Of a DNA stretch of 64,000 bases, positions 14,850 to 56,194 are shown in pieces. Every line of letters starts with the position of its first letter. The stretch's first letter is position 1. Source of the DNA: Octopus sinensis (taxonomy: Eukaryota); contig NC_043013.1 of NCBI RefSeq assembly GCF_006345805.1, forward strand, positions 22,134,001 to 22,198,000. Reading direction: 5' to 3'. The notes under the pieces were generated by a model, which saw only the letters and a program-made list of their open reading frames with translations, did not search any database and was not told the origin of the DNA. Made by a program: the position numbers and the translations under genes.

Positions 14850-15724
14850 TTGTATTGTTTGTAGAAAACATAAATCCAGGGAAGAAGCACACTCTAAGAT
14901 GTAGAGCAGTTAGTATTATAATAGGGGTGGCTGGTTTATGTGATTGCTCTGGGTTTCTCATTCATAAGGGGTTTGACCTTATGGCATATCATCAGATCCC
15001 AAAATCTGTTGGCCTAAGACCTTTTTAAAATATGGGTGGGGAGAATGGGGATCTGACGATAATCAGTAAGGCCAAACTCCTTATGGCCAGGAAACCGAGG
15101 GTAATCCCATAAACTGGCCTTCTCCATTAAAAAATATATATATATAGAGAGAGAGAGAGATATAGATATAGATAGATAGAGAGAGAGAGATATAGATATA
15201 GATAGATAGAGAGAGAGAGAGGGAGGGGTGTTGGTGTGAGAGAAGTGAAGATGATGATGAATAGTGTTGTATTTCAGATACTTTTCATCTGTTGATAATG
15301 ATATTAGGAAAGGATATTCAACATGGAAATAAATCCATAATTATGCAAAAATAATGCCAAAAATGGGTTTAACTATGATAAGAAATTTTTCACTCTAACC
15401 ATTGAGTACTGGTAACGCATACTACTACTACTACTACTACTACTGCTACTAGTGTTGCTGCTGTTGTTGTGATGATGGTGGTGGTGGTGGTGGTTTTTAC
15501 TATACTCAATACTGGTGTAAATTATATTATCAGTTTCATTGCAGATTTATTTATTTATTTATTTATCTGTTTATGCAACATAAAACTATAAAAATATAAA
15601 CCAACTTAACTCAGAACAACAACAACAACCGAAAACTATTACAACAACAACGTCATCGACTATGATGAGACTTTATCTCAAAGTTTATTTACAAGGTTTC
15701 CCTGTTTTGTTATTCATTGTTATC

Positions 15725-22213: not shown

Positions 22214-22719
22214 AGAAAATTACTATTTTTAATCTCACAACGAGAAATATTCAGCAACAGTACTTTGGAGTAAAGCTTGTTTGCCAACATAACATGGCAG
22301 GATGAAATTTAGCCCCAGGAGACATCGTCTCCAGCTGGCTATACGACACGATCTGTGTTCTTATATTTTCAAATAAGAGAACCTAGCACCCCCATTAAGC
22401 TCAAAACTATACCTGTGTATTGCAATTTCTGGGTTATTTTCCTTCACCAGCACAGAATAATTGTTTGGCTAGTGGCAGTGCTGCCAAATTCCTGTTTGAA
22501 ATATATAGCTTTCAAAGTGACAACTAGTCACTGATCTATAAATTAGAAAATTACTATTTGTAAATCTCATAATGAGAGATATTTAGCAACAGTACTTTGG
22601 AGTAAAGGTTGTTTGCCAACATAACATGACAGTACTAGTTTAGGACGAATGTTGCTGTAATTTAGCCCCAGGAGACATCATCTCCAGCTGGCTATACAAC
22701 ACGGTCTGTGTCCTTATAT
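22214..22719 (-). mobile_element. Penelope-pLTR/retrozyme-like partial tandem element (~330-350 bp unit)
   Basis: Direct repeats 22214-22366 and 22545-22719 flank a hammerhead motif. Distantly homologous to 55359-55851. Confidence 0.7.
22413..22455 (-). ncRNA. Minimal type-I hammerhead motif, eroded (A6G)
   Basis: Minus strand CTGTG CTGGTGA AGG AAAATAA CCCA GAAA TTGCAA TA CACAG. Stem I CTGTG/CACAG; palindromic stem III ATTGCAAT; AUA triplet. Confidence 0.6.
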
Positions 22720-23538: not shown

Positions 23539-23818
23539 TGTGTGTGTGTTTGTGTGTGTGTGTGTGTATATATATATGTAGAAAATTGTTTTTTCTTTGT
23601 CCAAAAGAGTAAAAATCTAAAGAAATGAAGCTGAAGGTGCACTTGGTAGTCTTTAAGATTTATTTATATGAACTGTACTCATTCCACAAATTCATGAAGT
23701 AGTTTGAGATGGATGGATGTAAAGCTATGCTGTAATCATCTCAAATCTGACCAGAGTTTGAAAGTTCATTTCTTTTTATGGAGAGATTTTCATTTAAATT
23801 GCCACCAAATTGAAGTAT

Positions 23819-24578
23819 TGCTGTGGCAGACACCCCGAAGTGAGAAGTGGACTGTTCCACTACTGATAAATAGTGGACAGACACAGTAAGCAGTGTCAGT
23901 TCATGAGGTACAGATGTTCAGGCCAGTCATGCAGACAACGAAGTTACGTTGTCATAAAGCAGGGCATATCAGTGGCAACGAGGATACCTCCCACTGTATA
24001 ATGGTGTTGATACATCAGTGACGACGAGGAGTCAAACTACATGCAGTGGCAGATAAGACACAACACAGATGGACCATGTAAGAAGACACAACAACTACAC
24101 ACAGTGAAAAATTTGAAGAAGGATTTAAATCAGATTGCTATGTGTTAGTAACACTACCGGTAAACAATGTAGACTGGTACTACCTGTGGCATTCTGAGGA
24201 GAAAAATAATCCTGTCTTGAAGAAAAAATAATTATAATAACAAGTCCGTGTGAAGGATTTAAGTCAGGTTGCTATGTGTTGGTAGTGCTACCAGTAAACA
24301 ATGTAGATTTGTACTACCTACCTGTGGCATTCTGAGGAGAAAAATAATTCTGTGTGGAAGAAAAAATAATAATTCTGTATGGGGGAGAAAAAGAAATGGA
24401 AAAAGAAAAAAAATAATGTGTGAAAGAAGAAACAAATCTCAAAGGGGTGAGGTGTTGTGGCAGACACCCCCAAGTGAGAAGTGGGCTGTTCCACTACTGA
24501 TAAATAATGAGTGAGGTATGCTGTTCGGGCCAGTCATGCAGATGACGAAGTTATGTCATCATAATGTGGGACATATCA
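23819..24578 (+). mobile_element. TRIM-like miniature LTR retroelement
   Basis: TG...CA direct repeats 23819-23971 and 24453-24578. PBS TGGCAACGAGGAT (23973-23985) right after the 5' LTR; purine tract AAAGGGGTGAGG (24441-24452) right before the 3' LTR; no coding capacity. Confidence 0.75.
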
Positions 24579-55076: not shown

Positions 55077-55283
55077 CTGTTGTGTCTGGGGGGAGTCATT
55101 TTCATTTTGTGCCTTATAATTTAACACACTCACCAGTAAAATTTCCACTTCTTTCTTATTTTTATTTTCCTAAAATTTTCATTGCATCAATTGAAAAGGT
55201 TGTAAGATGCAATGAAAATTTTACCACTGAGTGTGTTAAATTATAAGGCACAGAAAGAAAATGACTCCCCCCAGACACAACAG
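55077..55283. repeat. Foldback (nested inverted repeat) element
   Basis: ~55-bp outer arms CTGTTGTGTCTGGGGGGAGTCATTTTC...AACACACTCA and its reverse complement; inner arms TAAAATTTTCATTGCATC / GATGCAATGAAAATTTTA. Confidence 0.85.
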
Positions 55284-55305
55284 TATATATATGTGTATAT
55301 ATATA

Positions 55306-55358: not shown

Positions 55359-55975
55359 ATAATAGAAATATTAAAATTACTAAGTCTTTCTAAAGGAGAT
55401 TACAGCAGCATTACTGGATATTAATAGTTATTGCCATACTAATATGGCAGTCTATAAATAAGACTAAATCTGTCGCTGATTAGCTCCAAGAGGCCGTCGC
55501 CTCTAGCTAGCTATATGACACACGAACCTGCGTCCATTACAACCTTCGAACTGGGGAGGTCAGCTGCTTCACCTTGCTAGTCAGACATCTGCAGACATGT
55601 TTCAGGGTTGTTGCCCTTTATCAATGCAGCGTAGTCAGAACCAGCAGGTGTTGCTATTGACCGTCTGTTCGAAGATTTTATTTACCTAGTTACAGTGGAA
55701 TACATCCACTTGTTTTCAATAATAGAAATATTAAAATTACTAAGTCTCTCTAAAGGAGATTACGGCAGCATTACTGGATATTAATAGTTATCGCCATACT
55801 AATATGGCAGTCTATAAATAAGACTAAAGCTGTCGCTGATTAGCTCCAAGAAGGTTGTAATGGACGCAGGTTCATGTGTCATATAGCTAGCTAGAGGCGA
55901 CGGCCTCTTGGAGCTAATCAGCGACAGCTTTAGTCTTATTTATAGACTCCCATATTAGTATGGCGATAACTATTA

Positions 55976-55979
<4 letters not shown>
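55359..55979 (-). mobile_element. Penelope-pLTR/retrozyme-like element: 360-bp partial tandem plus inverted arm
   Basis: Direct repeats 55359-55491 / 55719-55851; 55850-55979 is an inverted copy of 55418-55547. Embedded in (TA)n and contains a hammerhead motif. Confidence 0.8.
55589..55629 (-). ncRNA. Minimal type-I hammerhead ribozyme motif with U3-A8 core
   Basis: Minus strand CTGCA TTGATAA AGGG CAACAA CCCT GAAA CATGTC TGCAG. Perfect stems I and II, palindromic ACAUGU stem III, GUC triplet. Confidence 0.72.
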
Positions 55980-56032
<53 letters not shown>

Positions 56033-56194
56033 TTATATATATGTATGTGTGTGTATGTATACAGCAACATTCGTCCTAAACCAGGACTGCCATGCTATGT
56101 TGGCAAACAATCTTTAATGGGGAATTTTCTTATATATTTACGTTTATGAATTTGTGTTGCAAGATTCCTGATATGGAATCATGTGTTGAAACAG

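What the first reader, a model, noticed from the sequence alone, without database searches (positions are those of the whole stretch)
22214..22719. Diverged sister family shows covarying hairpins outside the ribozyme
Seen: same partial-tandem layout and antisense hammerhead position as the 55.4 kb element, but with a C3-G8 core and different stems (CTGTG/CACAG vs CTGCA/TGCAG; ATTGCAAT vs ACATGT). Collinear hairpins change on both arms: GGAGAC-ATC-GTCTCC vs AGAGGC-CGTC-GCCTCT, and GTCCT-GGTTT-AGGAC (best preserved in the fragment at about 56060-56115) vs AGTCT-ATAAATA-AGACT. Inference: the whole unit is a structured RNA under selection, with extra domains possibly used for RT recognition.
Basis: partly seen in the sequence, partly recalled or inferred. 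Interest (0 to 1): 0.72.

Follow-up and report, generated by a model that had tools for sequence, protein, structure and literature searches.

The report
Folded retrozyme family riding Penelope enzymes
This is an old, damaged copy of a small protein-free jumping repeat with a hammerhead ribozyme motif (a known class, retrozymes); its many sister families keep the same predicted fold through paired changes, and the best-conserved part likely serves as the landing site for a borrowed Penelope-type copying enzyme.

Summary
Observation largely confirmed. 22214-22719 is a decayed 1.5-unit copy of a ~355-nt non-coding repeat (family B); the 55.4 kb element (family A) is homologous (68.5% identity, score 187 vs shuffled maximum 71). 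The genome holds further sister families (13 majority sequences, six deep lineages). A structure predicted from B alone is kept in the others: 208 of 268 double changes stay paired against 78 of 277 single changes; 0 of 2000 shuffles reach this. No single pair is significant genome-scan-wide. The hammerhead is on the element's sense strand, not antisense, and this copy's core is mutated. Insertions show the Penelope footprint, with two fixed 3' ends at homologous places in 7 of 7 families tested. Reverse-transcriptase recognition is inferred; no autonomous partner was found and RNA is not shown. Verdict: new member of animal non-LTR retrozymes with good comparative structure. The scan has noted this element class and the two fixed ends many times before in this genome.

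The parts
22214..22546 (-). Full unit of family B (333 nt here, about 355 in the family); fixed main 3' end at 22214
   Evidence: 307 of 333 aligned bases match the family majority; 21-nt deletion
22545..22719 (-). 5'-truncated upstream unit (majority positions 182-356), no hammerhead; forms the partial tandem
22413..22455 (-). Type I hammerhead motif, palindromic stem III; core position 6 and stem II mutated in this copy; predicted cleavage between 22418 and 22417
22456..22500 (-). 5' arm of the long rod that extends hammerhead stem I
   Evidence: rod including stem I, 41 pairs, 32 with a compensatory change in another family
22368..22412 (-). 3' arm of the long rod
22345..22359 (-). Small hairpin opening the conserved domain
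   Evidence: 93% of cells paired; mostly conserved or wobble changes, 1 compensatory cell
22310..22341 (-).
22632..22646 (-).
22282..22299 (-). Hairpin 3, inside the closing helix
22214..22269 (-). 'Tail': 45-56 nt between the second (inverted-arm) 3' end site and the main 3' end; holds the 3' strand of the closing helix and a 3' hairpin
22516..22532 (-). Hairpin at the unit start (follows the main end site in tandem or circular RNA)
   Evidence: 12 of 12 double changes paired
55362..55979 (-). Family A copy: unit plus partial unit (55362-55851, minus) and inverted arm (55850-55979, plus); hammerhead 55589-55629 with U3-A8 core
   Evidence: 30 of 33 units have this core
56060..56116 (+). Family B fragment with intact hairpin 2; ends at majority position 298, the second end site
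   Evidence: (56 of 57 match)

Best explanation
The stretch is a decayed genomic copy of a dispersed, non-coding, ~355-nt hammerhead-motif repeat (a non-LTR retrozyme) whose sister families share one predicted fold through compensatory changes and which is likely copied in trans by a Penelope-like reverse transcriptase-endonuclease. Proposed cycle: tandem transcripts are cut by the hammerhead, probably as a dimer through the palindromic stem III (inferred from PMC4209133); the long rod holds the two cut ends together, which would favour circularisation (inferred); the enzyme likely binds the conserved 3' domain and starts cDNA at two fixed sites 45-56 nt apart, far from the ribozyme cut; more than one lap gives partial tandems, and the second start gives the inverted arm (ends shown, mechanism inferred). 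Selection on the fold acts on source copies only; inserted copies such as this one decay neutrally (shown).
For: Homology A-B. Majority sequences fold at z -5.3 to -10.2 on the hammerhead strand in 11 of 11 tested. B-only structure on a sequence-only alignment of 13 majorities: 77.5% of 1149 cells paired vs 63.1% null, 208 paired double changes vs 74.6, 57 of 103 pairs with a compensatory change vs 33.7; 0 of 2000 partner shuffles reach any of these; A1 vs B alone 16 of 22 double changes paired, null mean 5.2, max 13 in 5000. On 40 real copies, ribozyme excluded: 76.5% paired vs 68.4%, 384 vs 171 double-change cells, 0 of 500 shuffles; slid controls 38-46%. Stem III is an exact palindrome in 12 of 13 majorities with seven different sequences, J being one base off (D read). 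Penelope footprint as described in 10.1101/2021.04.23.441226: inverted arms with two outward 3' ends in 19 of 30 A, 18 of 27 B, 9 of 24 D, 15 of 24 E loci. Main plus second end account for 230 of 271 outer 3' ends in seven families. Region 186-239 is 72% identical across six lineages vs 65% for the hammerhead and 38-51% for the rod arms. Autonomous RT plus GIY-YIG elements with sense-strand palindromic hammerheads exist in the genome.
Against: No single pair passes a tree-aware G-test against all column pairs (best E 0.8, and that pair is not in the structure); 8 proposed pairs pass only the within-structure threshold of 0.05. In one search two of five measures did not exceed shuffles (pairs with a double change 49 vs 48.0; further pair types 131 vs 142). 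RNAalifold on the 40 decayed copies recovers only 26 pairs and not the distal rod, hairpin 2 or the closing helix. G-U over A-C bias for the sense strand is weak (44 vs 34, p 0.31; 41 vs 24, p 0.046) and the sense z-score is the stronger in only 7 of 11. No similarity to the unit in the 3' regions of the autonomous elements examined (56 loci, some overlapping, from 147 of 5029 candidates). B copies do not sit in TA microsatellites as A and E mostly do. Stem II of B has an A-G opposition next to the core. Majority sequences include a CpG-restoring rule of mine.
Confidence: 0.7

Rival explanations
1. The fold is selected only for compactness, stability or circularisation of the RNA; the enzyme recognises short end sequences, not the hairpins.
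For: Published retrozyme circles are predicted to be highly self-paired (PMC7229834 passages). The rod keeps pairing with almost no sequence conservation. Hairpin 2 is lost in family K. Several families end in a similar short T-rich motif.
Against: The domain at 186-239 keeps unpaired bases invariant (22 invariant columns of 63, against 10 of 44 in the hammerhead; partly biased because some families were found with a pattern from this region), which stability alone does not need. The second end is at a homologous place in 7 of 7 families.
Confidence: 0.3
2. The units are solo pseudo-LTRs or 3' fragments of an autonomous Penelope-like element not yet found, so the fold belongs to that element's end.
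For: 24 of 57 Xenopus retrozyme families match Repbase elements, nearly all Penelope-like ends (bioRxiv 10.64898/2026.07.22.740005). Only 150 of 5029 GIY-YIG candidates were scored.
Against: Units join head to tail to themselves, up to about 3.5 units at one locus. In 265 other loci plus the window and 30 more no ORF ran into a unit; the two same-strand cases examined (L172, L358) have the element's own end and a TA run between ORF and unit.
Confidence: 0.12
3. Same element, but copied from linear tandem transcripts with template jumps; no circle, and the ribozyme only trims the RNA.
For: No circle or RNA is shown here; only 1 of 9 Xenopus dimers cleaved in vitro; Penelope minimal hammerheads cleave weakly (PMC4209133).
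Against: Junctions fall at the same place, away from the ribozyme, and the rod pairs both sides of the cut, as expected for a circular template; circles are shown for coral, mussel and axolotl retrozymes.
Confidence: 0.3
4. The covariation is an artefact of CpG decay, short palindromes or alignment.
For: CpG positions mutate at 0.19-0.30 in five older families and did produce the window's stem III variant; few independent lineages.
Against: Alignments used sequence only; the structure came from B alone; many changes are transversions or A-U/U-A swaps; partner-shuffled and slid controls are far lower.
Confidence: 0.04

Closest known systems
Metazoan non-LTR retrozymes (Cervera and de la Pena 2020, PMC7229834; passages read)
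   Same: Non-coding unit of 170-400 nt (mussel 350-390), type I hammerhead, tandem copies, low GC, predicted highly self-paired fold, Penelope-like elements in the same genome.
   Different: Here copies are mostly dispersed 1-2 unit partial tandems with inverted arms and two fixed ends, not long arrays; a fold conserved across families outside the ribozyme was not in the passages seen. RNA, circles and cleavage were shown there, not here.
Animal retrozymes as non-autonomous Penelope-like sequences (Li, Clavereau, Pollet 2026, bioRxiv 10.64898/2026.07.22.740005; parts 1-3 of 5 read, abstract to discussion)
   Same: Proposes mobilisation by Penelope-like enzymes; many families per genome.
   Different: Based on co-occurrence and sequence similarity to pseudo-LTRs in Xenopus; here no sequence link to an autonomous element was found, but the insertion footprint and a conserved fold were.
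Endonuclease-bearing Penelope-like elements (Craig et al. 2021, 10.1101/2021.04.23.441226, passages; Cervera and de la Pena 2014, PMC4209133, parts 1-2 of 4)
   Same: 5' truncation, partial tandems, inverted 5'-truncated arm, tail on one end, sense hammerhead with palindromic stem III, U3-A8 core variant.
   Different: No ORF; tail 45-56 nt instead of 30-40; stem II short (4 bp) and stem I extended into a rod.
R2 elements and their SIDEs (review PMC6765202, passages)
   Same: Analogy only: protein binds structured UTR RNA, and ribozyme-bearing non-autonomous parasites use it in trans.
   Different: Different enzyme, ribozyme (HDV-like) and target.

Membership tests
Metazoan non-LTR retrozyme | Type I hammerhead motif in each unit | tested here: met
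   canonical core in 30 of 36 B units; mutated in the window copy; Rfam gave no hammerhead hit
Metazoan non-LTR retrozyme | Non-coding unit of about 150-450 nt in head-to-tail repeats, no LTR | tested here: met
   units of 342-366 nt for complete majorities; tandem copies; ORFs within the unit were not scanned separately, but no RT or endonuclease match lies in the window
Metazoan non-LTR retrozyme | At least two consecutive complete hammerheads (the 'active' criterion of Li et al. 2026) | tested here: not met
   Not met by the window copy (one hammerhead); other B loci such as L008 and L005 have consecutive full units
Metazoan non-LTR retrozyme | Self-cleavage | not testable with these tools
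   needs in vitro transcription
Metazoan non-LTR retrozyme | Expression as linear and circular monomers | tested here: inconclusive
   only assembled contigs of runs guessed to be RNA
Penelope-like element, non-autonomous | Fixed 3' end, 5' truncation, partial tandem, inverted arm, tail | tested here: met
Penelope-like element, non-autonomous | Ends shared with an autonomous element | tested here: inconclusive
   none among 56 loci, a small part of 5029 candidates
Penelope-like element, autonomous | RT plus GIY-YIG ORF | tested here: not met
   no match in the window

The most novel reading that the evidence does not exclude
The ~170-nt 3' domain, more conserved than the ribozyme across lineages only 46-73% alike, is a dedicated binding and start-site element for Penelope-type (telomerase-related) reverse transcriptase that fixes two internal priming sites on a circular RNA: a natural, covariation-defined minimal substrate for an enzyme whose RNA recognition is not understood.
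Probability: 0.4. Interest if true: 0.72.

Novelty: new member of a known kind. Interest (0 to 1): 0.46.

Why it matters
How Penelope-like enzymes choose their RNA and make partial tandems, inverted arms and tails is open (Craig et al. 2021 passages; Li et al. 2026 discussion). A 355-nt element with a dozen diverged families gives a comparative structure and two mapped start sites, hence a defined substrate and defined mutants. The class itself is known, this copy is a relic, and the scan has already reported the same class and the two ends many times in this genome.

Tried and rejected
Rfam scan of the window: 128 matches, all below gathering score, microsatellite-driven; no hammerhead family. 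Expression: no RNA holder listed; 14 runs guessed to be RNA hold family A words, and the runs laid are contigs only, covering both units in pieces, with no ends, strand or circle readable; used as no evidence either way. Partner search: GIY-YIG loci by BLAST, profile HMM, local alignment and covariance model gave only independent insertions of A, E and F copies; best local scores 52-75 were at the level of shuffles (max 63-77.5). The sequence after family I in L195 looked like a 5' UTR but is a local duplication. Flank sharing among loci was dominated by other common repeats and output was cut. Metagenome pattern scan: 120 stretches, none above 8.6 bits with the profile; chance. Within-family covariation: none expected or seen. 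Weak model hit at window 23709-23851 (E 0.039) not pursued. PMC5785218 was not held; seen only as a title in a reference list. No supplements were read; they may list cephalopod retrozymes. Searches listed no paper on cross-family covariation outside the ribozyme in animal retrozymes; the library lacks most subscription journals. Loci dropped before counts: overlapping duplicates (L003, L006, L018, L248 and similar) and clusters of fewer than three copies.

Full report
Setting. The window is G000:C17:22134001-22198000 of a 2.72 Gb animal genome; earlier scan notes call it an octopus, which I did not check. Rfam finds nothing relevant.

The observation. 22214-22719 is one full unit and a truncated second unit on the minus strand, with a type I hammerhead motif at 22455-22413. 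A search of the genome gave 2784 first-look candidates for this family (B) and 2423 for the 55.4 kb family (A); 40 of each were scored. Majority sequences of A (33 units) and B (36 units) align end to end at 68.5% over 337 columns, local score 187 against at most 71 in 1000 shuffles. The window copy is a relic: 307 of 333 bases match the family majority, hairpin 2 is deleted, core position 6 and stem II are changed, and its predicted folding energy is -86.8 against -124.0 kcal/mol. Its stem III variant is two CpG decays of an inferred 8-nt palindrome.

More families. A hammerhead pattern, chance neighbours and a pattern from the hairpin 1 region (5795 exact matches against 3 for the reversed control; 100 listed, 70 loci fetched) led to families D, E, F, G, H, I, J, K and subfamilies A2-A4. 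Thirteen majority sequences, from 3 to 64 segments each, are 46-95% alike; B, D, I, K, E and A1 are 48-73% alike and were not found through the hairpin 1 pattern.

Covariation. I folded the B majority alone (103 pairs with probability over 0.5) and counted on a sequence-only alignment. In the 12 other majorities 77.5% of 1149 cells pair; 208 of 268 double changes pair but only 78 of 277 single changes; 57 of 103 pairs have a compensatory change. Shuffling partners among columns with the same B base, which keeps each column's history, gives 63.1%, 74.6 and 33.7; 0 of 2000 shuffles reach the observed values. With one sequence per lineage the count is 87 against at most 52. Per helix, paired double changes over all double changes: unit-start hairpin 12/12, rod with stem I 127/173, outer helix with hairpin 1 21/23, closing helix 26/30, hairpin 2 8/9 but only 67% of cells paired; the small hairpin before it, hairpin 3 and the 3' hairpin are conserved with 0-1 compensatory cells. 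On 40 real copies with the ribozyme excluded, three of five measures beat all 500 shuffles and two did not. RNAalifold on those copies gave 26 pairs, 19 with double changes. A tree-aware G-test of my own (25 simulated alignments) found no pair significant against all column pairs and 8 proposed pairs under 0.05 within the structure, two of them in hairpin 1. So the aggregate signal is strong, the per-pair signal limited by few lineages. Within families, non-CpG paired and unpaired sites mutate alike (B 0.043 vs 0.034; A1 0.017 vs 0.015; K 0.009 vs 0.012): selection acted on source elements, not on inserted copies.

Ribozyme. Cores vary in known or plausible ways (C3-G8 in B, D, E, F, G; U3-A8 in the A group, a variant reported in PMC4209133; C at position 4 in I, J, K), and stem III stays palindromic while its sequence changes. 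PMC4209133 describes such motifs as dimer-dependent and weak in vitro. Cleavage is untested here.

Insertion footprint. Copies have a fixed 3' end downstream on the hammerhead strand, variable 5' truncation and often an inverted arm ending 45-56 nt short of the main end. In seven families 134 of 271 outer 3' ends are at the main site and 96 at the second, which lies 13-20 nt after hairpin 3 inside the closing helix (J's main end is under-sampled). This matches the Penelope layout in Craig et al., with a longer tail. Neither end is at the ribozyme cut (about position 130), so reverse transcription is inferred to start internally. Sequence identity across six lineages is highest in the domain around hairpin 1 (72%), then the unit-start hairpin and tail (66-67%), hammerhead (65%), closing domain (56%) and rod arms (38-51%).

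Partner. The genome has several RT plus C-terminal GIY-YIG families, some with intact 775-781 aa frames and sense-strand palindromic hammerheads; one has the same core and stem III as family A. None of the 56 loci examined shares the unit's sequence or fold. The enzyme class is inferred from the footprint; the specific partner is unknown.

Verdict. A new member of animal non-LTR retrozymes, behaving as a non-autonomous Penelope-like element. Earlier scan notes on this genome reached the same class and the two fixed ends; they are not independent support.

Noticed in passing
window 14930-15135: A ~205-nt near-palindromic repeat whose two head-to-head arms each carry a type I hammerhead-like motif (right arm 15048-15108); 1398 first-look candidates, nine other copies aligned keep core and stems. 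Possibly a minimal Penelope passenger, unrelated to families A and B.
   Followed up: partly
L108-L111, L109, L088 and L303-L309, L089, L090, L314: Several Penelope-like families with C-terminal GIY-YIG, some with intact 775-781 aa frames, each with its own palindromic hammerhead 220-1170 nt after the ORF; most end in TA runs.
   Followed up: partly
L268, L273, L280 (family K): Young family (about 1% non-CpG divergence) that has lost hairpin 2 and lengthened hairpins 1 and 3: a natural deletion variant for structure tests.
   Followed up: partly
L304, L305, L309, L088 3' ends: One autonomous family ends in a short T-rich motif like the main end of families D and K; alignment scores were not above background. 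Weak lead for the partner.
   Followed up: partly
window 55100-55290: An inverted repeat with arms of about 50-60 nt just left of the family A copy; weak Rfam hairpin hit at 55109-55251.
   Followed up: no
L195 (G000:C1:27364000-27371000): Local duplication holding family I fragments interrupted by short foldback copies of subfamily A3.
   Followed up: partly
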